DNA of 64,000 nt, taken from assembly GCF_009914755.1 (NCBI RefSeq), contig NC_060934.1. One strand, given 5' to 3'. The stretch's first letter is position 1. Each line of letters opens with the position of its first letter. Shown here one piece after another: positions 5,085 to 31,396 of the stretch. The notes below the pieces were generated by a model, which worked only from the letters and a program-made list of their open reading frames with translations, ran no database searches and was not told the origin of the DNA. The position numbers and the translations under genes are program-made. Source of the stretch: the human T2T-CHM13v2.0 reference genome, Homo sapiens.

Positions 5085-5250
5085 GCCAGATCGATAAGGA
5101 GGCCGTGCAGAAGTACGCCTACCTCAACGTGGTGGGCATGGTGGGCTCCATCGACAATGATTTCTGCGGCACCGACATGACCATCGGCACGGACTCCGCC
5201 CTGCACAGGATCATCGAGGTCGTCGACGCCATCATGACCACGGCCCAGAG
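5085..5250 (+). CDS. PFKP: PFKP exon 5 (166 nt)
   Basis: [25 protein letters not shown] catalytic motif; AG/GT. Confidence 0.97.
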
Positions 5251-20063: not shown

Positions 20064-20151
20064 CGTTCTCCCGGGGAAGTACTTGGAAGAGATCGCCACA
20101 CAGATGCGCACGCACAGCATCAACGCGCTGCTGATCATCGGTGGATTCGAG
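20064..20151 (+). CDS. PFKP: PFKP exon 15 (88 nt)
   Basis: VLPGKYLEEIATQMRTHSINALLIIGGFE. Confidence 0.96.
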
Positions 20152-20601
20152 GTACGTTACCGTTTCTCTCTTGCCGGTCTTGCAGGTGTGAGCCGCGCCC
20201 TGTGTTGGCTAAACATTAAGTTACTTGTTGGCTACTGGCCACGATCCGAGATGATAGGTTCCCAGACCCAGCGGCCACTGGAGAATTGTAGAACAGCAGG
20301 ATAGCAGGTGGTAAGACGTGGCCTACGAGTGGCCCAGTTCCAGTAAAGCAACTTAACCGAGAAGCAAAAGCTTGACTCCTTAACCGGGCCTCATCTATTC
20401 AGTGAGCTCTTGTATTTCAGGCCTGTGGAAGTAATTCTATCTCTTGAGTCCAGAGTCCAGTGGCTACTTAGAGACTAAGGTAGTTATACCTAGAATTTTG
20501 TTTAAAATCACATATTGGACTGTAGACCCTAATATTTTTTCTATTCATGAAGATTAGTCTCATGGTAACCTTTCCATTTACTTTTAGAAAAAGTAAAAAC
20601 T

Positions 20602-20897
<296 letters not shown>

Positions 20898-21163
20898 AGT
20901 AAGAACCTCAGAAATGAGACTCTTACCCATGAGAGGTTTAGTCATCTAACCGATCATGTCTGTCCTGCGCCCTTTGTGCTTACAACCTGCCGATCCTTGT
21001 CTGTGGTCTTAAGGCAACTGTGTGTTGATCTCGGAGTGTTTTCGTGATGCCCCAGTGTGCTCCCTGCGTGCTGTGGTGGAGGTGGCGCTCCCAGCCTCTC
21101 CCAGCGAGACCCCCTCCTCCCCAGCTTCCCTCTCGCCCCACAACTCCCACGCTTGTCTGACAG

Positions 21164-21316
21164 GCCTACCTGGGACTCCTGGAGCTGTCAGCCGCCCGGG
21201 AGAAGCACGAGGAGTTCTGTGTCCCCATGGTCATGGTTCCCGCTACTGTGTCCAACAATGTGCCGGGTTCCGATTTCAGCATCGGGGCAGACACCGCCCT
21301 GAACACTATCACCGAC
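21164..21316 (+). CDS. PFKP: PFKP exon 16 (canonical, '16a', 153 nt)
   Basis: [51 protein letters not shown]; cag|...|gtaag. Confidence 0.97.
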
Positions 21317-21641
21317 GTAAGTCCGTGTGCGCCCTGCCAGGCGGGCGCCGGCTGACGCTAACCCCGGGGCCCCGGCCCTTTTTATCTACCAGTGCGCTAG
21401 AAATAGCCTTTTACAAATACCCTGAATGAGAGCTTCTCGTTCTTTTTTTCCCCCAGAAAAGTATGTTTTAAGACTCTGAAAATTTTTGATCTCACTCCCA
21501 GAAAGTTTTACCACCTCTTCTTCTGTGTGGCCACCAGGGGGACGTAGTGTGGCCGAGACTCCAGGGGTGCCCGTGAGCACCCGAGGCGCTGAGGAGGGCT
21601 GGGTCGCAGTCTCCTGTGATTGTACCAGCATTAAAAATCAC

Positions 21642-21643
<2 letters not shown>

Positions 21644-21673
<30 letters not shown>
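21644..21673. repeat. (TG)n microsatellite
   Basis: pure TG array. Confidence 0.9.
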
Positions 21674-21676
<3 letters not shown>

Positions 21677-21925
21677 AGCCTAAATTTTCTTTGAGCCTCC
21701 AATACCCATTATGATGAACCCCTGCCTTGATGCTGAGGGTAGAAATTGAATTGAATATTTTATAATTTTATTCATTGCCCTGAATGCACCATTGCATTTG
21801 TTATCTCTCTGGTCTTGGCTGTTGACCTCATTTTCCCCTTTGTAAACTGGGGATGTTAAATTACCTCTAAGGCAATAATTGGTGCTACTTTAGTTTTTTT
21901 GCCAAGAGACAATAATAAAACATAG

Positions 21926-22159
<234 letters not shown>

Positions 22160-23061
22160 TGAAGATCCGTACCTAACACAGAAAGCATTTCATTTTTTAA
22201 AAATTTGATGTCTAAAAGTTTGTAGTAATTCTCAAGTTTTAATTTTTCTTGTGAGACTTGGTTCTCATGAATATTTTTCAAAGATATTTTTTCTTGTAAA
22301 ACCTTGGCATGAAACTTATTTCTAGCACTGGTAAATAAAAAAAACAAGCTTTTAACATACAGCTCATATGGTAAGTAATGCTTAGCACTCGTTTCTTGCT
22401 TTTCTGAGCGTTTTAAACTTTCTTCACTTTCTTTGCGAAGGAAACCTGCCCAGGTTTTCCTGTGTTCACTGGCTTTGGGGGCAACTTTCACCTTATTTTT
22501 GGCAGTTGCTAATCTCTGACCTAGACGTTGCTTCTGTTCTCCTGGTGGTGGGTGTCACGGCTTTGCTGCTGCGGGGCTGGCCCGGCTCTGGACCGACCTT
22601 CGCACTGTGAATGTGAAGATGAGCCTCTTTCACAGACTGGATTCCGTCATTGCTTTCACTGCTCTTTCGCCTGCTTTAGCTAGATTTTTGGGTCTGTGAA
22701 AGTTGGGTGTGCAATGGGAGGGACTGAAGCTTCTTTTTTCCCTAATTGTTACCTAATTGGAACTCGCCCAGAGGGAACGGGTGGAGAATTTGAGAGCGGT
22801 CGCTGCAGTTAGCTGAGTTTCTTTTTAATTCCAGGGTCCTCTGCTATAAATGTTTTTTTTTTTTTTTTTTTCAGATTGTAAATATGTAACAAATGCATAG
22901 GGTCAAATTTATGAAAACCAAAATACGTGGGGCAAAAACACCCCACAAATGATCATTTCCACCTGCTTTTACTTCCCTTGGAGGGATTGTGTGATTTATT
23001 ATGCGATTGTTTTAAATGCAGTTTTTCATTCATTCGAGTTTCTCGAAGCTAGGTTAAACAA

Positions 23062-23073
23062 TTTCTTTTTTTT

Positions 23074-23108
<35 letters not shown>

Positions 23109-23389
23109 GAGACAGGGCCTCACTCTGTTTCCCAGGCTGGAATGCAGTGCTGCAATCGCTATTCACTGCAGCCTCGACCTCCCAGGCTTAGGTGATCCTC
23201 CCACCTCAGCCTCCTGAGTAGCTGGGACTACAGGTGGGTGCCACCGTGCCCAGCTAATTTTTTGTATTTCTATAGAGACGGGGTCTCCCTGTGTTGCCCA
23301 GGCTGGTTTCAAAACGTCTGGGCTCAAGCAATCCCCGTCTTGGGCTCTCAAACCACAGGGGTTACAGGGATGAGCCACCGCGCCGGGCC
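23062..23389 (-). mobile_element. AluJ, antisense, long T tract
   Basis: Alu consensus similarity. Confidence 0.88.
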
Positions 23390-24039
23390 TGAAGTTAACT
23401 GATTACAATGTCTGAGAAAGAACTGGAGCGTGTAGTTAGTTGAGCCTCCCGTTGGCCAGGCACAGCCACCTTGGTAAGTGCATGTGTGTGTCCTTGTTGC
23501 CCTTCTGATCCTGAGCTCCAAGGAACAAGGCTGTCTTGGGAGTGCGGTGGTTCTAGTCTCGTGATGGGTGAGTGGCGCCGTCTGACCGAGGTCACCCTGG
23601 CGAATGCTGTGGCTGCTCGGGAGCTGGGGCAGAGAAGAGAAAGCCGCTGAGGGTCCCTCTGTGGACCCTGAAGGGAGAGGGACCGATATGTGAACATGGC
23701 AGCTGTTTTCTCCAGAGCCCTGTTTACTGACGGCCGAACAGTGTGAATCCTGAGACGGTTTGGATTTGGGTCTGAACTGGGCTCGTCTGGCCACAGAAGA
23801 ACATGAGCTGGTGGCATCCTCAGGAAATCAGGGTGTGAGGCAACTGGACGTGGATGGCTCCGGGTCCCCCCGGCCACTGTCCTGAAGCCGCCAGAGGCTG
23901 AGGACGCATGGGAGTGAGCGTCTCTTCCCTGTCCGGCCACACCCTCTGTGACTGGTGACTCATGGCGTGGCCCTGGGCAGCATTTAGGTTTGAGGTCTGT
24001 AGATGGCTCCAGTATACTGGCTTCTCTTGTTCAGAAAAT

Positions 24040-24255
24040 TTGGTGATTCTCATGGGGGCAGGGGTGGTGATTTTGCCCCAGGGGATGTTTGCAACGTCCA
24101 GGGAGGTTTCTGGTTAGAAGTGGGAAAAGGGATGCTCCCAGCATCTGGGGCTGGAGACAAGGGACGCTGCGGAACGTCCCTCAGAGCACAGGGTGGGCTC
24201 CATAATAGGAGTCTGGCTCAGGACGTCGCCGTGTTGTGCTTCGGAAGCCCTGGGC
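24040..24255. mobile_element. MER20-like DNA transposon relic
   Basis: GGTGATTTTGCCCCAGGGGA... resembles the recalled MER20 consensus. Confidence 0.6.
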
Positions 24256-25190
24256 GGGGCTGATGTGGTGAAGCCTCATCTTCTCTGGACACGTGCGTCC
24301 TCGTCCTCTCTCATGATTTCCTTCTTGCCAGCATTGATGCTTAGCCCCTCAGAATCTATGCGGTGCTGGTGAGTGGTCCTCCGGGCAGAGCAGAAGGAAT
24401 GAGATACCTCAGAGCCGGTGTGACACGTTCTCAGGATACGGCTGCAGGGAGTTTCAGTCCGACCCTTTCATTCCTTAGCACTGGCCCATTACTCCGTCCT
24501 GTAAGCTCGATAAGGTCACATCAGAAGCACAGTAAGCTGCTGCCACGCTGCCGTCAGCTGCCGCGAAGGTGGCAGTGACCACAGCCTCGTGACTGATTCA
24601 CAGCCTGGCTGCGCTTGGTCTTGAGAATTTTATGTTTTGCTGGGCAGGGTCTCCCCCGTATTGAAGCTTCCCTTCCCTTTTTTGGAGACTGAAGGAAGGA
24701 AAAGAGGAGTGATAGGGAAGAGGGGAGAGAGGATTTGCAGCATTGTGGCTGTCCCCACAGATTTCAATGTGGAGTTAAGGTGCCAAGACCCCCACCTGCC
24801 CTCCTGTGTGCCTCAGGCCCCTCCTGGTCCCAGGTCACCCACACCGTCTGGCTTCCAGCGAGCGCTTCTCGGAGAAACAGCCAGCTCCCCACAGCCAGTC
24901 TTGGTCAGTCCTGAGCTCGGGTACTCCAAAGTGAAGTGAGCGACATCACCTGTCTGAAAAGCATAAGGAGACTCCCACGTGGCGGTGCTGAGGGGCCACA
25001 TCCTGGGCACCAGGCCAGCCAGTGCCCCGACATGAGTGTTGCTGGCCGGGAAGCAGCTGGCATTTGGATTGAAGTCCTGCAAAAACTGCCATGGCCAGAG
25101 CCTGCCAGGCAGAGCCTGCACAGAGCGGCCCAAGAGCTGGGCACGTGCTGGGCCTGGGTGGATGTGGAGGCTGTGCCATGGGGCGCGGGG

Positions 25191-25271
25191 GACCCTGCTC
25201 ACAGCTCACCTTGTGGTCACCCAGCACTGACCCTGCTCACAGCTCGCCTTGTGGTCACCCAGCACTGACCC
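25191..25271. repeat. 38-bp tandem duplication (2 copies)
   Basis: GACCCTGCTCACAGCTC(A/G)CCTTGTGGTCACCCAGCACT x2. Confidence 0.9.
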
Positions 25272-26364
25272 ACCCGCCCCACCCTCCTATCCACCATGCT
25301 GTGAACTCACCTGCCACGGGTCTACACCCACTGTCCGAAGCCCTCGGCCCACACGGGCTCCAGGCCTTGGGATGCTTTGCGTTGCACCAGGGCTGCAGAG
25401 TCCAGATCGCTCACTGTCCGACTCTCCCAGGGAGGTGTGGGCGCCGCCCTGTGTCCCACCAGTAGCATTTCTGCAGCAGATGTGGGGATATTCACAGTAA
25501 GACGGACACGTCCAAGACCATAAATAGTTGGTTTTGCCACCACGTGGATGTCAAAAACACCTTGCTGTGTGGGGCCACTTGGAGGTGGGAACAGTGGGCG
25601 TGTGGACCTGTCCTGCTGTGACTTTGGTTAACACCCTGAGGTGGAGTCTGAAAAACCCCGGTGTACACGGGCTCAAGAACCGCTCCCCTTTCTGATACCG
25701 GAGCGCATTTCCCAGTGGAACCCCAGAGCAGCAACTCAGGTTCTTGCTCGCCTGTGCGGCTTTGTGTGCGGCTTGCCGAGGGCAGAAACGGCAGCTTCCG
25801 CCCGGAGAGCAGAGATGTGGCGTGGGGCTGAGTGTGGCCCACCGGTAATCCAGCTGCATGCCCCCTTCCCTGCCTGCACCTGGGCGCCGCCTCTGCACGA
25901 TGAAGGCAGGCATTTGGTGTGGTCCTTACAGCCGTGTGCCCCATCCCACTGATCCTTGCCTGCCTGCAGAAAGCTACAGGATTGGCTTTGCCTTTAAGTG
26001 TCCTGACTGCCCTGGCCTCCCTTACCTACCATGACACGCCGAGAGCTGAGCTGTCCCACTCGTGACTAACTCGCCGTTGCCTGCAACCTGCTCCGTTGCC
26101 TGCCTCACACCCACCCCGCTGTGCTGCCTGCAGGCACCCCCTTTCATGAGGACCTGGGCTGTGCCCAGGCGGCCCCCTGTGTTGCTGGGGCCTGTGCTGC
26201 TCTCGCACGGCCTCCAGAGCCTCCCTCGGCCCCTTGACCCGCATGAACCGGCTTCCCCTGGTGACTCAGTCCCCTCCCGTCCCTTCCTGGACCTCAGCAC
26301 AGGCCCTGGGGCTGGCAGGTGAGCACCCGGCACCCCCGCTAACCGCTTGGCCCTGCTGCTTCAG

Positions 26365-26517
26365 GCTTACAAGAGTGCGTGCGACATGGCCGAGGCACGA
26401 GGCCGCCACCAGGAGCTTTGCATCCCCCTGTGTGTGGTGCCGGCCACGATTAGCAACAATGTCCCAGGCACAGAAATAAGCCTGGGCTCCGACACTGGCC
26501 TGAATGCTGTTGTTGAG
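26365..26517 (+). CDS. PFKP: Paralogous alternative PFKP exon '16b' (153 nt), candidate mutually exclusive exon
   Basis: GCTAAC branch motif 26338-26343, ttcag acceptor, GAG|gtaaga donor; open frame [51 protein letters not shown], gap-free 24/51 identity to exon 16a. Confidence 0.88.
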
Positions 26518-29500
26518 GTAAGAGAACCCCGTTTCCTCCCGTTGCTTTTCCGTCATTTATTTTAGCAACTTGTTTCTTCTGTGCTAAGGATGAGCCGGAT
26601 TTATTCTTCTTTTCTCCCCTTTGTTAGCTTGGCTTTATGTCACACTGGCCAGAACAGGGTAAAATTTTTTTAGCTTCTCTGCCTTAGGGAGAGCCTGTCT
26701 TTATTGATTAAAAGTGAGATGATATATCCAGTCCTTGGGATCGTGTTTCTATCCCACCTAGACTAGGGGAGCCGCAGGTACCATTGCTCTGGAGGCTGCC
26801 TCTCCTGCCCACGCTGAGTAGTGAGGCTGCAGGGCCAGCTGTGGGAGCCTGCAGGAAGGGGTGTAAATGCCCGGTAAGTACGAGCTCCAGGACAGAGCCG
26901 TACCCACTGGGGGCCGCTGCCTGGAAAACAGCCTTCCTGGTGAGACAAGAGGCTCTTTAGAGAGCCGAAATCACACCCTCCTGGGCAGGCGGTTTCACCA
27001 ACATGTGCCTTGGGAGGGGTGGATTCTGCCAGTCGTGGGTGTGGTGCTGACACCCGCATGGTGGCCCCTCCGGTCCCTGATACTCTGACCTACCTCTATG
27101 GTCATAAGCTGGACATGAAGACCTATGGTAGTTCCACAGGCCTTTGCTGCAGAGACGGTCCTCACTCAGCTGCAGACAGGACGGTGGCCACCGTGACATG
27201 TGGGGTCACGTCCGTGACTTGGCCACCTGGTGCGAGGGACCCACAGCAAAGCAGAACTGCTGGCCGGGGTAGGCCTGCATCGCGTGCGGGGACAGCAGCC
27301 ACTGGCCTTTACCTTACATCTTGACGTCCAAGCCAGCTCCGGAGTTTGCAGTGAAAACTCCCAGCCCTGCTGGAGACTCCTTAGTTCAGCTTAGCACAGA
27401 ACCTCGGAAGACAGCAGTTCTATTCCGGGTACTTCCTTCAGAGCTGAGTTACAGTGCAGGGAAGGGAGCAGAGGAGCCATGAGGTCGGCTGCAGCTTCCT
27501 GTGCGTCCGAGCCTCAGCCTCCCACTCGAGCTGAGGGGCGTGTCCTGGCCATCTCTCTCCTGGGCTTCTCCCTGTGTTCCCCAGTGCTGTGGTGGTCTTG
27601 CAGAGGCTGGCCCTGGCTCATTCCCAGGACTTCCTTGGGCCCCGCACTTGACCCCTGTTGGGTGAATGCCATTAGGGTCCGGCCATCGCTGGCTTCACTC
27701 TCCTTTAGCACCTTGTAGATGTCCATGCACACTTCCACCCTCGCGCCCCACACGCGACGCAGCCCTACCCTGGCCAGCAGCTGTGCTTTGCTGCGGGTTC
27801 CTTGCTGTAGCAGGGACAGGACCCCCACCCCCTGTCCCGTCTGGCCACCGACTTCAGCAGAGGCTCGGCTGCCGTGAGGGATACCAGTCATGGGAAAACT
27901 GGCCTCCCTGCAGATTCACAGAGCAAGGTGGTTCTCACAGAGAAGTCAGTGGCTTTTTTCTACGTTAATGCTGTAGCAAACGCCACCTTTTCTTTCACCA
28001 CCAATTTATATTTCTTAACACCCATGGAGCAAAGTGTGGTGATGTTTGAACTGTAGCCTGGGGCTCTCGCTCCCATGGGACTCCTCGGGGAATTTCCCAG
28101 CAGCAGGATCGCCTCTGTGTCCTTGCAGGGGGTGGCGTCTGCTGGGGGCACATCCCATCGTGCAGGGGGAACGGCTGAGGTCACAGGCTTTGCCTGACAA
28201 GTGCCACTCACAGCTGCTGTCCACGTGCCAGCCCTGGGACACAGCCCTCTGCCATCCTTCCACCCACTCGGAGGCCAGGGAGGCACCTCCGTGCCACACT
28301 GCAGGCAGGCAGGGCCGCGCTTGGGATCTGCCGCCTTCTTGTCAGTGCTGCTTTGACTAATTGCCTGAGGCACGGCCGGAGTGACTTGCTATTTTTAGAA
28401 GCTAATTCAGGCTTCAGATGCCATCTAGGTAATGAGGAGAGAGTTCAGGAAAGCTGTATCTAAGCTCCAGCAAAGGCGGCCTCTTCCGTACCAGCTGTCG
28501 CTGCGTTTACACTGAGACGAGCACACAGTCGGGGGCGTGGCTCAGGTGTCAGGGCTGCGCTGTTCCACAGCCCCCTGGGGCAGCCTGGCGGGACCAGAAC
28601 TCAGACACGCCTGGGCACAAATCAGCCTCTTGGGAGAGCTGCTTTGCCCGCAGAATTCTTTTGCCATTAAGCGGTTGATGTCATTCTTTGAATGAGTGAC
28701 AGTAATTCCCCACCTCAGGGTGGGCTGCGGGGGAGATTCAGTTGGAAAAGTAACCCATGAGGTTTTGTGCCTCTGGGGGTCCTGAGGCCCCACCCGTGCC
28801 TGGGATTCTCTAAGACAAAGGACAAGTCTTAAAGCCTTACAGCATCTTAAGTCTTAGATCACATTTAGAGAGACCCGGTACAGGTGGAACAGTGCAACCC
28901 TCAGAATTCTGCACTGGCCCTTCAAGAAGGCAGTTGTGGGCTCTTTGGACCCTTGACGGGGATCTGTCCTCTGTCCTCCTAAGCACAAAGATGGGAATTC
29001 TTCCCATTGCCTGTTTCTCTCCCCATCTCGGCTTCTACACAATGCAAAGTGGCCCGCTAACTAGAGTCCGTGTTCAGTTTTGAATACATCAACCAATTAT
29101 TTTGGGAAGAAAAGAATCTGCCAAAGAAACTGGAAATACAGTTTGGAATCATTTAATCAAGCCTGCATTTATTAATCAAAGTGCACTTTTAGATTTCATC
29201 CGAAGTGCTCAAGTGAACATTTCCCAATGGGTGTTAAACTTGGGTGCACAGACTCTCACGTGGCTCCTAGTCTCAAGTCCACACCCCACTTCATGCTCTT
29301 ACTCTTGGCTGAGTCCCATGGAGGCCCGTTAGGGAATCCTGCAGGATCAGCCGTTGACCAGGACGGACGGACGGCTGGCTGGGGAATACCATGCTTATGT
29401 CATTCAGAGACAAGCATTTCTTGAGCGCCTGCTGTGGGGGCTCGGCCGGGTGCTGCTGATGGTGCACTGGTGTAAGCCCAGCCCACAGTTCCTGTCCTCA

Positions 29501-31081
29501 TGGAATTTGCAGCCTAGTGAGGAAGATCCTCCCAAGTCAAATAACCACAAGGTAACTGCAGGGAGAGACACCGGGATAATTTCTGTGAAGAGAGGACATG
29601 GGGTGGCTCCGAGAGCCCCTGACAGAGGGAACTTTGTGGTCCTAGAAACCAGGTGGTGTTTTCCTGAGGAAATGACATTTTCCTCTGGATCAGAGCTGAG
29701 GAAGGTGCCTCTGTGTGTCCCGTGGCCGCTGTGACACTGACCACACACCTGGGGCTGGAAAATAATACTCACTCTCCCACAGCTCTGGAGCGCAGGAGCC
29801 ATGGGCTGAGGCCAGAATGTTTGCTCCAGGAGCGTCCCTCGTGGTCCGTTCAGGTGCCCAGAGTTGCGGGCCTTGCACGCCTTGTACGCCTTGTTCCCTG
29901 GCGCCTCCTCCCCTGGCGCCTCCTCCTTCCATGTGGGTGTGCAGCATCCCGCTCCAGGGCCTTCAGCCTCTGCGCCCCTCATCTGCTGATGCAGGTGATG
30001 GCATTTAGGGCCCACCTGGGTACTCCTAGGATTCACCTTTATCACCGCATGAGGGAGCATTCCCAGGTTCTAGGGATTAGGGATAGGACTGGGATTCCTT
30101 TGGGGACTGCTCTCCCGCCCACCACTGTGCCAGAATGTGATGCACACAGCGGCCAGCATATCCAAAGGCCCCAGGAGGACCTGGGGTGGCTGGAACAGGA
30201 CCTGGTGCCGGGAGCAGGCGGGGCCGGGGATTCCCGACAAAGGCTTGATGTGTACTTGAAGTGAGCAAAGGGTTTTGAATAAACCAAGAACTGGATCAGA
30301 TTTATGTTTTTTATAGATGGGGTCCTTTCTGTGTGAACGGATTGGAGGGTCCCGGGGTGGGAGCTGAGGCCCAGGAAGAGGGCGTTGCAGCCGGACTGAT
30401 GTATGGGTGGGAAGGCGGCCGATGCATTTCTTTGCCATTTTTCTCCCCGCCGAGCTTGGGTCCTCATGGAGGGCGGATGGCAGACATTTCACTCTGGGAC
30501 CCGATGCCTGTGCATCTGGAAGACTTCCCCAGGTGCCTGGGTCTAAGAACCACCATCTGCCTTTGAGTAGAGTTTCCATAAATGTAACATTCGCCAATGG
30601 ATGGAAGATGGCCGCACCTCTAAAATCACAGGGAGCTTTTCAGAAGAAAATAGAATAGCACAGCGGTTCTCACGGACTAAGCTGGCAGGGGACAGTCCCC
30701 TAACATCTCAGCTAACACCTAACGGTGTCTGTGTCCGGTGAAAGCGGCTTCAGCAGGGACAGTCACAGAGCAGCGTGGAGTGAGCTGGCTTGTGGGGTCG
30801 TCTTTTCCGTCCCCTTCTATGGGGCCTGGGAGAAGGGAGCGGCAGATGGCCAGGCCCCCAAAACGGGACATCGAGGTCACCTCCAGGTGGCTGCCATGGT
30901 GGGGTTGCGGGGGACCACGTTCACACCCACTCCGAGGGCACATCCCGGCTGCTGCACACCCTTCACCTCTGCGGGATGCTGGGACCGCATGTTTGGGCGC
31001 GGTGGGGGGGCCTTGCTGCACTCACTCTTGGGGGAGCTCTGGGATGGTGGGCGCGCCCCGGGCCTGGGCTGGAGTGACTGA

Positions 31082-31396
<315 letters not shown>

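What the first reader, a model, noticed from the sequence alone, without database searches (positions are those of the whole stretch)
26365..26517. Second copy of PFKP exon 16: candidate mutually exclusive exon that swaps the allosteric-site segment
Seen in the sequence: a 153-nt phase-0/phase-0 exon in intron 16, the same length as canonical exon 16 (21164-21316). It has no stops or gaps, a GCTAAC branch motif about 23 nt upstream of a ttcag acceptor, and a GAG|gtaaga donor. The peptides align without gaps at 24/51 identity: [51 protein letters not shown] versus [51 protein letters not shown]. The core PAT[V/I]SNNVPG is kept while several of its codons differ synonymously and many other changes are conservative (V/I, D/E, S/T, I/L), which points to an old duplication under purifying selection rather than decay. 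Established knowledge: this exon encodes about aa 511-561; TVSNN (538-542) is part of the fructose-2,6-bisphosphate activator site, and S540 corresponds to the PFK1 O-GlcNAc site. Inference: a PKM1/PKM2-like exon switch could produce a PFKP isozyme with different allosteric, oligomerisation or redox behaviour (16b has three Cys versus one). I cannot check whether this exon is already in a minor annotated transcript, and I know of no functional characterisation.
Basis: partly seen in the sequence, partly recalled or inferred. Interest (0 to 1): 0.92.

Follow-up and report, generated by a model that had tools for sequence, protein, structure and literature searches.

The report
Known alternative PFKP exon 16b
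This is a real, very old second copy of one coding exon of the human glycolysis gene PFKP, but it is already annotated and already described in print as a swap-in alternative exon, so the finding is correct and not new.

Summary
Window 26365-26517 is an open 153-nt, phase-0 exon with canonical splice sites. It is 24/51 identical, without gaps, to canonical exon 16 (E 9e-22).

It is not new. The hub's RefSeq table already lists it as an exon of another transcript. It is event 155 (ENST00000381125 vs ENST00000413079) in a published catalogue of tandem duplicated exon substitutions. The same PKM-like allosteric idea (V539I at the fructose-2,6-bisphosphate site) is in print (PMC7954323, bioRxiv 10.1101/292813).

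What I add:
- The a-then-b exon pair occurs in predicted PFKP proteins from lamprey, sharks, ray-finned fish, amphibians, sauropsids and mammals.
- 16a groups with the PFKM exon (99-100% support). 16b is ancestral-like and closest to the PFKL exon (33/51).
- Human PFKL and PFKM each hold a single copy.
- In mammals 16b evolves much faster than 16a (mean pairwise identity 32.7 vs 47.7 of 51).

Limits:
- The catalogue records no peptide evidence.
- Nothing in the DNA enforces mutual exclusion, because all four exon combinations stay in frame. Many predicted proteins carry both exons.
- My searches found no experimental study of the isoform.

Verdict: already known, low interest.

The parts
26365..26517 (+). 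PFKP exon 16b: 153 nt, phase 0/0, 51 codons. It is the alternative homologue of exon 16 and encodes the b-type version of residues 511-561.
   Evidence: Open frame. 24/51 identical to 16a. Pfam PF00365 at 41.4 bits, above the 30.9 cut-off. Listed as an exon of another RefSeq transcript in the hub table. Event 155 in the supplement of PMC8373072.
26338..26364 (+). 3' splice region of 16b: gctaac branch-point-like motif (26338-26343), pyrimidine-rich stretch and the cag acceptor.
   Evidence: Sequence read. Pyrimidine fraction from -20 to -3 is 0.72, the same as for 16a.
26518..26525 (+). 5' splice site of 16b: GAG|gtaagaga, a U2-type GT donor.
21164..21316 (+). PFKP exon 16a (canonical exon 16): 153 nt, phase 0/0, a-type. 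It lies 5,048 nt upstream of 16b.
   Evidence: Identical to the PFKP chains in the PDB.
20064..20151 (+). Constitutive exon 15, the upstream partner of either exon 16 copy.
   Evidence: Hub table. Translation across 15-16a-17, 15-16b-17, 15-16a-16b-17 and 15-17 stays open in all four cases.
31100..31264 (+). Constitutive exon 17, the downstream partner. It begins T-C-D-R. By residue numbering (exon 16 ends at residue 561) M583 and G584, the two other pocket positions that differ from PFKL, lie downstream of exon 16.
   Evidence: Hub table. Pocket differences come from the PMC7702303 passage. Their placement downstream of exon 16 is my inference from the numbering.
5147..5218 (+). Paralogous segment of the N-terminal (catalytic) half ([10 protein letters not shown]...). 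It is the only other similarity to the 16a/16b peptides in the window.
   Evidence: tblastn of a/b peptides against the window, E 1.5e-4. Weak second stretches appear in the PDB alignments.

Best explanation
Exon 16b is a genuine alternative coding exon of PFKP. It is already annotated and already published. It is the downstream member of a tandem pair of homologous exons that dates back at least to the common ancestor of lampreys and jawed vertebrates.

Shown here:
- Used in place of 16a, it replaces residues 511-561 of the C-terminal regulatory half and leaves the rest of the enzyme unchanged.
- This segment is the strand-loop-helix homologous to the T-I-D-N-D catalytic loop of bacterial PFK.
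- Both copies keep Thr538, Ser540, Asn541, Asn542, Gly545, Asp553 and Thr554.
- The copies differ at 27 of 51 positions in human. The differences include V539I, V533C, S546T, T560V and D561E.
- 16a is the derived form and groups with the PFKM exon. 16b keeps the ancestral-like form and is closest to the PFKL exon.

From the literature: in vertebrate PFK this loop forms part of the fructose-2,6-bisphosphate activator pocket.

Inferred:
- V539I is one of only three pocket differences between PFK-P and the far more F2,6BP-sensitive PFK-L. The 16b isoform should therefore have a partly PFKL-like effector pocket and a shifted activator response. It would keep the Ser540 O-GlcNAc position.
- Exon choice must be set by trans-acting factors or RNA structure. 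Reading frame, intron length and splice-site type do not enforce exclusion.
- In mammals the b exon is under weaker constraint than in fish and sauropsids. Its use in humans is probably minor or restricted.
For: Exon anatomy:
- Open frame, splice sites, phase and 24/51 identity.
- PF00365 match for both peptides.
- The hub table lists 26365-26517 among exons of other RefSeq transcripts.

Prior publication:
- Supplement of PMC8373072: PFKP event 155, ENST00000381125 vs ENST00000413079, internal, last common ancestor of the event 'Chordata', flagged as present in Lam et al..
- PMC7954323 main-text passages and S4 Text, and bioRxiv 10.1101/292813, describe the PFKP MXE and V539I near the F2,6BP site.

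Distribution:
- Of 229 database proteins examined, 171 carry a-type then b-type segments, and 160 of those have them exactly 51 residues apart.
- They come from lamprey (P0331), chimaera and sharks, ray-finned fish, amphibians, sauropsids and mammals.
- 26 PFKP models of 700 aa or more carry b only.

Conservation (human plus 31 hand-picked species):
- 11 of 51 b positions are invariant, including Cys533, which is b-specific.
- Sauropsid vs ray-finned mean identity is a 43.4 and b 41.0 of 51.

Relationships:
- PDB searches give a reciprocal pattern. 16b: PFKL 71.8 bits, PFKP 59.8-60.3, PFKM 54.6-54.7. 16a: PFKM 72.1-74.4, PFKL 61.8.
- Human exons: 16b-PFKL 33/51 aa and 108/153 nt; 16a-PFKM 34/51; 16a-16b 24/51.
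- Trees place a plus PFKM in one clade with 99-100 bootstrap and 98-99 SH-aLRT support. The lamprey a exon falls inside it.

Function (PMC7702303 passages):
- AC50 for F2,6BP is 0.17 uM for PFK-L and 9.13 uM for PFK-P.
- O-GlcNAc at Ser529 prevents F2,6BP binding.
Against: Use in human tissues:
- No RNA-seq, long-read or peptide data could be examined here.
- The published catalogue leaves its Proteomics column blank for PFKP. [quoted passage not shown]

Constraint in mammals:
- 16b mean pairwise identity among 16 mammals is 32.7/51, against 47.7/51 for 16a.
- Mammalian b exons break 1-6 of the 21 positions that are invariant in 16 non-mammals. Human breaks 5 (E513K, L518M, F528L, D547E, I559V). 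The a exon breaks 0 of 30 in 15 of 16 mammals.
- The camel copy has lost the Ser (T-D in place of I-S).

Mutual exclusion:
- It is not enforced. All four exon combinations are in frame.
- 171 of 229 database models carry both exons. These are predictions, and two of the three searches rank two-hit proteins first.

Other weak points:
- The AU test does not reject a tree in which a and b form one clade (lnL 15.8 lower, p 0.123). The pre-split origin therefore rests on branch support from only 51 columns.
- The kinetic effect is inference from one conservative substitution.
Confidence: 0.8

Rival explanations
1. In humans and other mammals 16b is a fading relic. It was a functional alternative exon in the vertebrate ancestor and still is in fish and sauropsids. 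In mammals it is now spliced in only at noise level and makes no meaningful amount of protein.
For: The b exon diverges much faster in mammals: mean pairwise identity 32.7/51, against 44.2 in sauropsids and 43.1 in ray-finned fish. The a exon stays at 47.7. Mammals break 1-6 of 21 positions that are invariant in non-mammals. The camel copy has lost the Ser. Macaque 'PFKP-like' copies carry S>N and P>L. There is no proteomics flag. A 2025 PFK review has 0 occurrences of 'splic' or 'exon'.
Against: The frame is open, without indels, in every mammalian model seen. This is an ascertainment bias, because only models that include the exon are retrievable. Human-marsupial identity is 30-37 of 51, far above what unconstrained sequence would keep. 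The T-I-S-N-N-V-P-G core and Cys529/Cys533 are intact in human and other primates. The human splice signals are canonical.
Confidence: 0.3
2. 16b is not mutually exclusive with 16a. It is a cassette exon that is added after 16a and gives an 835-residue protein with the segment repeated.
For: Both exons are 153 nt and phase 0, so 15-16a-16b-17 is in frame. 171 of 229 database proteins examined carry a then b. One cluster stands for 141 primate sequences (P0003) and one for 166 bird sequences (P0085). No cis feature forbids joint inclusion: the intron is 5,048 nt and all sites are GT-AG.
Against: These are predicted gene models, not observed proteins. rank by summed score, which puts two-hit proteins first. 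The duplicated segment is a core strand-loop-helix of the Rossmann-like fold, so a tandem copy is unlikely to fold (inference; the structure prediction I asked for was not available). Ensembl and the published catalogues treat the pair as a substitution. 26 b-only PFKP models exist.
Confidence: 0.1
3. The b exon did not arise by tandem duplication within an ancestral PFK gene. It was copied into PFKP from the PFKL lineage, or the a exon from the PFKM lineage, by ectopic recombination or gene conversion early in vertebrate history.
For: 16b is closer to the PFKL exon (33/51 aa, 108/153 nt) than to 16a (24/51, 88/153). 16a is closer to PFKM (34/51). Human PFKL and PFKM show no relic of a second copy within 10 kb on either side.
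Against: Synonymous differences are near saturation for every pair (pS 0.58-0.76), so any transfer would be as old as the paralogues themselves. b-type features (Ile539, Thr546) are also the state in fungal and nematode PFK, in unnamed sequences, and in the N-terminal half. Much of the b-PFKL likeness is therefore shared ancestral state, and the trees give no b+PFKL clade. One duplication plus losses in PFKM and PFKL is simpler. The published catalogue dates the event to Chordata.
Confidence: 0.1

Closest known systems
The PFKP tandem duplicated exon substitution itself (Ensembl ENST00000381125 / PFKP-203 vs ENST00000413079 / PFKP-205)
   Same: It is the same pair of exons. It appears as event 155 in the supplement of PMC8373072. 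It is Fig 5B and part of S4 Text of PMC7954323. It has its own section in bioRxiv 10.1101/292813. It is cited in PMC9741552.
   Different: Nothing differs in kind. Those works are computational: an mCSM-lig prediction for V539I, and a dating to Chordata. My nine literature searches found no expression, peptide or enzyme data for the isoform.
PKM exons 9 and 10 (PKM1/PKM2)
   Same: A glycolytic enzyme with two adjacent homologous exons. The swapped segment bears on allosteric activation by a fructose bisphosphate. The literature draws this parallel explicitly.
   Different: For PKM the catalogue records peptide evidence and tissue specificity (PMC9741552 Table S2), and the kinetic difference is textbook knowledge. 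For PFKP none of this is shown. Only one pocket residue changes, and it is a conservative change.
The homologous exon of PFKL (chr21) and of PFKM (chr12)
   Same: Same length (153 nt), same phase, same position in the protein. The PFKL exon is b-like at positions 513, 533, 539, 546, 558, 560 and 561. The PFKM exon is a-like at 533, 539, 546 and 558.
   Different: They are single constitutive exons of separate genes. No second copy was found within 10 kb on either side in human.
Drosophila melanogaster Pfk tandem duplicated exons
   Same: A phosphofructokinase gene with a tandem duplicated exon substitution (PMC9741552 Tables S4 and S5).
   Different: That paper lists it as 'different region, convergent', so it is not the same exon and not inherited from a common ancestor. 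I did not examine the fly gene.

Membership tests
Tandem duplicated exon substitution (homologous mutually exclusive exons) | Two neighbouring exons of one gene that are homologous to each other | tested here: met
   24/51 identity, no gaps, E 9e-22. The two exons lie 5,048 nt apart in one intron-exon series.
Tandem duplicated exon substitution (homologous mutually exclusive exons) | Same length class and phase, so that the swap keeps the reading frame | tested here: met
   Both are 153 nt and phase 0/0. 15-16b-17 translates without a stop.
Tandem duplicated exon substitution (homologous mutually exclusive exons) | Mature transcripts carry one copy or the other, not both and not neither | tested here: inconclusive
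   No transcript data are available here. Annotation holds a substitution pair in Ensembl and 26 b-only PFKP models, but also 171 models with both exons out of 229 examined. All of these are predictions.
Tandem duplicated exon substitution (homologous mutually exclusive exons) | A cis feature that enforces exclusion: a frame shift leading to NMD on double inclusion, an intron too short, or U2/U12 incompatibility | tested here: not met
   Double inclusion and double skipping both stay in frame. The a-b intron is 5,048 nt. All four splice sites are GT-AG of U2 type. No non-Alu complementary pair of 16 nt or more links intron 15 with the region before 16b. This feature is common in such pairs but is not required for membership.
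Tandem duplicated exon substitution (homologous mutually exclusive exons) | Both copies conserved across distant species | tested here: met
   a-then-b pairs occur in predicted PFKP proteins of lamprey, cartilaginous fish, ray-finned fish, amphibians, sauropsids and mammals. This is protein-level evidence only. No orthologous DNA was available.
Phosphofructokinase (Pfam PF00365), effector-site loop of the C-terminal half | Significant match to the PFK profile over the loop homologous to T-I-D-N-D | tested here: met
   PF00365 at 41.4 bits against a 30.9 cut-off, profile positions 104-147. Exon positions 20-50 align to residues 117-147 of 319-aa bacterial PFKs, so Ser540 falls on residue 127. 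That residue 127 is the catalytic Asp is recalled knowledge, not from a call.
PKM1/PKM2-type allosteric switch by exon choice | The swapped exon changes residues of the allosteric effector pocket or of the interface it controls | tested here: met
   [quoted passage not shown] 16b has Ile at that position.
PKM1/PKM2-type allosteric switch by exon choice | The two isoforms differ measurably in regulation | not testable with these tools
   No kinetic data were found in nine literature searches. The only result in print is a computed affinity change.
PKM1/PKM2-type allosteric switch by exon choice | Regulated, tissue- or state-specific exon choice | not testable with these tools
   No expression data are available here. 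The catalogue gives no proteomics flag for PFKP. A motif scan for common splicing regulators around both exons showed nothing distinctive.

The most novel reading that the evidence does not exclude
The a/b exon pair was already an alternative-exon switch in the single PFK gene of the vertebrate ancestor. After the genome duplications PFKM fixed the derived a form and PFKL kept the ancestral-like b form. Only PFKP still carries the switch, and teleosts appear to hold two groups of PFKP-named models that both carry it. On this reading, choosing 16b turns PFKP part of the way into a PFKL-like, F2,6BP-hypersensitive enzyme. The muscle/liver regulatory difference between PFK isozymes would then descend in part from an older splice choice. 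I found this paralogue-resolution reading in none of the papers I could search.
Probability: 0.3. Interest if true: 0.45.

Novelty: already known. Interest (0 to 1): 0.22.

Why it matters
PFK1 is the committed and most heavily regulated step of glycolysis, and PFKP is the isozyme raised in many tumours. A natural isoform that rewrites part of the fructose-2,6-bisphosphate pocket would matter for how flux is set.

That idea is already in the splicing literature. It remains untested at the bench. A 2025 PFK review that I searched does not contain the words 'splic' or 'exon'.

The practical value of this report is as follows:
- It closes the novelty claim.
- It shows that the exon pair is at least vertebrate-old and that each copy has a paralogue counterpart (a with PFKM, b with PFKL).
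- It warns that the mammalian copy is fast-evolving and lacks recorded peptide support.
- It flags that databases hold many predicted proteins with both exons. These may be annotation artefacts.

Tried and rejected
1. Competing RNA structure (docking and selector sites). The inverted-repeat search of 20152-31099 gave 15 pairs. Six are Alu-Alu pairs around exon 16a. None links intron 15 with the region before 16b. No orthologous DNA was available to test conservation. I therefore make no claim.

2. Splicing-regulator motifs (RBFOX, PTB, MBNL, NOVA, hnRNPA1, QKI, CELF, SRSF1) within 300 nt of both exons showed nothing distinctive.

3. Relic second copies in human PFKL and PFKM. A tblastn with ten a/b peptides against 10 kb on each side of each exon gave only the real exon, the N-half paralogous exon and noise at E > 0.01.

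4. Formal test that the duplication predates the paralogue split. The AU test of 'a+b one clade' gave lnL 15.8 lower and p 0.123, so it was not rejected. The 51 columns give little power.

5. A specific b+PFKL clade was not recovered. b, PFKL and unnamed non-vertebrate sequences stay unresolved.

6. The search of 1.84 billion representatives with 16b returned mostly unnamed fragments. The only two multi-hit proteins were N-half plus C-half, not tandem a+b. It was uninformative for taxonomy.

7. The search with the PFKM exon was meant to reveal any PFKM or PFKL isoform with a tandem pair. Among the 120 listed, the one 'muscle type' (P0335) and the one 'liver type' (P0350) model carry PFKP-like a and b exons that match PFKP-named models of a related or the same species (P0364, P0348). 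They look mis-named. No PFKM or PFKL tandem was seen, but only the best 120 of 2,497 hits were listed.

8. Structure prediction of an a+b protein (alignment A1) was not accepted by the tool.

Additional_Material.pdf of PMC8373072 was unreadable.

10. Earlier findings of this scan were not open.

11. Other papers holding both 'PFKP' and 'mutually exclusive exon' proved irrelevant. They concern paralogue ratios, an unannotated retained intron in Alzheimer brain, gene-level expression, or salmon pfkpa.

Full report
**1.

Window 26365-26517 reads as 51 sense codons. Canonical exon 16, at 21164-21316, has the same length. The two peptides align end to end with 24/51 identities, 39/51 positives and no gap, E 9e-22.

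- A gctaac motif lies at 26338-26343, with its branch A 23 nt before the exon.
- The acceptor is ...ctgcttcag|GCT.
- The donor is GAG|gtaaga.

Taking the frame from the annotated coding exons, exon 16 starts and ends in phase 0. Exon 15-16b-17 translates without a stop. Both peptides pass the Pfam PFK model: 41.4 and 46.3 bits against a 30.9 cut-off.

In the whole 3.1-Gb assembly the 16b peptide matches four places only. These are itself, an exon on contig 21 (65% identity), 16a (48%) and an exon on contig 12 (51%). The contig 21 and contig 12 exons are the PFKL and PFKM exons by their identity to the PDB chains. A permissive tblastn of the window finds no third copy. It finds only the paralogous loop of the N-terminal half at 5147-5218.

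**2.

- In 784-residue primate orthologues the segment occupies 511-561.
- The PFKL chain aligns at 500-550. The Ser at exon position 30 is therefore PFKL Ser529 and PFKP Ser540.
- Passages of PMC4158873 and PMC7702303 give Ser529 as the O-GlcNAc site that prevents F2,6BP binding.
- PMC7702303 lists V539 among the 19 residues of the F2,6BP pocket.
- Exon positions 20-50 align to residues 117-147 of bacterial PFK. Ser540 therefore falls on residue 127. That residue 127 is the catalytic Asp is my recollection, not a tool result.

**3. It is already known**

- The hub's RefSeq table lists 26365-26517 among exons of other PFKP transcripts.
- The supplementary table of PMC8373072 ('The clinical importance of tandem exon duplication-derived substitutions') has PFKP as event 155. 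I saw two passages and part 1 of 30, which holds the header. The entry reads: ENST00000381125 vs ENST00000413079, internal, Proteomics blank, Gene duplication blank, last common ancestor of the event 'Chordata', not in Hatje et al., in Lam et al.. The main text does not mention PFKP.
- PMC7954323 (passages, and passages of its S4 Text) presents the PFKP exon pair as a second glycolytic MXE beside PKM. It points to V539I next to the F2,6BP site and computes tighter ligand binding for the Ile form. [quoted passage not shown]
- The earlier preprint 10.1101/292813 names the isoforms PFKP-203 and PFKP-205.
- PMC9741552 repeats the point. Its Table S5 lists fly Pfk as a convergent event in a different region.

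I ran nine literature searches. They found no expression, peptide or enzymatic study of the isoform. A 2025 review of the PFK superfamily has no occurrence of 'splic' or 'exon'. About 1.7 million PubMed Central articles and most subscription papers are outside the searched library.

**4. How old the pair is, and what each copy resembles**

*Searches.* I ran three searches of the 5.8-billion-protein library:
- 16b: 71 hits among 76 candidates.
- 16a: best 120 of 2,959.
- The human PFKM exon: best 120 of 2,497.

*Counts.* These gave 229 proteins, which I scanned for the segment:
- 171 carry an a-type segment followed by a b-type segment, and 160 of them have the two exactly 51 residues apart.
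- 48 carry a b-type segment only. Of these, 26 are PFKP models of at least 700 residues from mammals and one fish. The rest are PFKL, fungal, nematode or unnamed sequences and fragments.
- The remaining 10 are two 'aa', one 'abb', one 'a' and six fragments too short to type.

The tandem models come from lamprey (P0331: a at 503, b at 554), chimaera, sharks and a ray, sturgeon, bowfin, many teleosts, frogs, salamander, turtles, alligator, lizards, snake, birds, marsupials and placentals.

Two cautions apply. These are predicted proteins. Searches also rank by summed score, which favours two-hit proteins, so the ratio is not a frequency.

*Conservation.* I hand-picked 31 species from these models to span the clades and added human.
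- The a exon is nearly frozen. Mammal vs non-mammal mean identity is 44.5/51.
- The b exon is about as conserved as a in sauropsids (44.2 vs 47.8) and in ray-finned fish (43.1 vs 42.9).
- Among 16 mammals the b exon is far more divergent: 32.7 vs 47.7.
- Eleven b positions are invariant in all 32 species, including Cys533, which no a exon has.
- Positions 513, 520, 533, 560 and 561 separate a from b completely. Positions 539 (V vs mostly I) and 546 (S vs mostly T) separate them nearly so.
- Mammalian b exons break 1-6 of the 21 positions that are invariant in the 16 non-mammals, and human breaks 5. The a exon breaks 0 of 30 in 15 of 16 mammals.

*Comparison with the paralogues.* The human paralogues give a reciprocal pattern.
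- 16b scores best against PFKL in the PDB: 71.8 bits, against 59.8-60.3 for PFKP and 54.6-54.7 for PFKM.
- 16a scores better against PFKM (72.1-74.4 bits) than against PFKL (61.8).
- At DNA level 16b-PFKL is 108/153 nt and 33/51 aa. 16a-PFKM is 102/153 and 34/51. 16a-16b is 88/153 and 24/51.
- The proportion of synonymous differences is 0.58-0.76 for all pairs. That is near saturation, so there is no sign of recent conversion.

*Trees.* I built trees of the 51 columns:
- 76 rows.
- 48 rows. This used 18 of the 32 species and dropped two long-branch outgroups that the first tree flagged.
- 50 rows with lamprey added.

All three put the a exons with the PFKM exon in one clade (support 100/98, 99/99, 99/98), with the lamprey a exon inside it. 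The b exons, PFKL and unnamed non-vertebrate sequences stay unresolved.

Ile539 and Thr546 also occur in fungal and nematode PFK and in the N-terminal half. So b is best read as the ancestral-like form and a as the derived one.

*Origin.* The simplest history is one tandem duplication before the lamprey-gnathostome split, followed by loss of b in PFKM and of a in PFKL. Human PFKL and PFKM show no relic within 10 kb on either side.

The formal test is weak. A tree with a and b held together is 15.8 log-likelihood units worse, but it is not rejected (p-AU 0.123).

**5. How it most likely works**

*Shown.* The swap changes 27 of 51 residues in the loop and flanking helix-strand of the regulatory half. 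It keeps Thr538, Ser540, Asn541, Asn542, Gly545, Asp553 and Thr554.

*From the literature (passages).* The F2,6BP pocket of PFK-L differs from that of PFK-P at three of 19 residues: V539I, M583V and G584T. PFK-L responds to about 50-fold lower F2,6BP, with AC50 0.17 uM against 9.13 uM.

*Inferred.* 16b supplies Ile539 while residues 583 and 584 stay PFKP-like. The isoform would therefore be a hybrid with a shifted activator response. The O-GlcNAc position is kept in both forms. The b-specific Cys533 and the human-specific Cys516 could add redox sensitivity, but nothing tests that.

*Exon choice.* No cis feature enforces it.
- 15-16a-16b-17 and 15-17 are both in frame.
- The intron between the copies is 5,048 nt.
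- All sites are GT-AG.
- I found no complementary pair of the docking-selector kind and no telling regulator motifs.

Whether transcripts really carry one copy only is therefore an open empirical point. The many a+b models in the databases sharpen that question.

**6. Verdict**

The feature is real, ancient and coding.

What is left open is experimental: usage, peptides and kinetics. The fast evolution of the mammalian copy and the blank proteomics entry lower the odds that it matters much in humans.

Novelty is 'already known' and interest is low. The paralogue-resolution reading (a with PFKM, b with PFKL, the switch surviving only in PFKP) is the one modestly new thread.

Noticed in passing
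window 20602-20905 vs 21935-22100 and 23086-23389: Inverted Alu-like repeats flank canonical exon 16a. One lies in intron 15 and two in the intron after 16a. The arms are 49-177 nt long and 73-80% complementary. Such pairs can loop out an exon (skipping or circular RNA). If they act here they would be primate-specific and would favour loss of 16a. That they are Alu elements is my reading of the sequences; no repeat annotation was run.
   Followed up: no
window 27232-27291 and 27746-27805: A 60-nt inverted repeat, 85% complementary, with arms 454 nt apart, lies in the intron about 0.7 kb downstream of 16b. It is G+C-rich and does not look Alu-like. Its function is unknown.
   Followed up: no
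database proteins P0004, P0042-P0046 (macaque 'platelet type-like'): Macaque proteins named PFKP-like carry a b-type segment with changes at otherwise invariant positions: Ser540 to Asn, Pro536 to Leu, Arg522 to Gln. In total 10 of 21 conserved positions are broken in P0004. This suggests a degenerating extra copy or a poor model.
   Followed up: partly
database proteins P0121, P0127 (Camelus dromedarius): The camel b exon reads T-T-D-N-N-I-P-G in place of T-I-S-N-N-V-P-G. The Ser that matches the O-GlcNAc site is lost in this lineage.
   Followed up: no
database proteins P0112, P0335, P0350: Three likely annotation problems. A barb 'platelet type-like' model has a PFKP a exon followed by a PFKM-type exon, which groups with human PFKM at 100/98 support. 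A catfish model named 'muscle type' and a toothfish model named 'liver type' carry PFKP-like a+b pairs.
   Followed up: partly
teleost proteins: Teleosts show two distinct groups of PFKP-named models. Their a exons end in ...A-I-T-D or in ...A-I-T-T. Both groups carry an a-then-b pair. This looks as if both copies from the fish genome duplication kept the switch. That they are two paralogous genes is my inference; I did not check it by locus.
   Followed up: no
PFKP gene (intron not specified in the text seen): A 2026 preprint (10.64898/2026.10.21.760529, passages only) reports an unannotated retained intron in PFKP as its strongest Alzheimer-associated RNA-processing signal. The passages do not say which intron, so a link to the 16a-16b region is unknown.
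   Followed up: no
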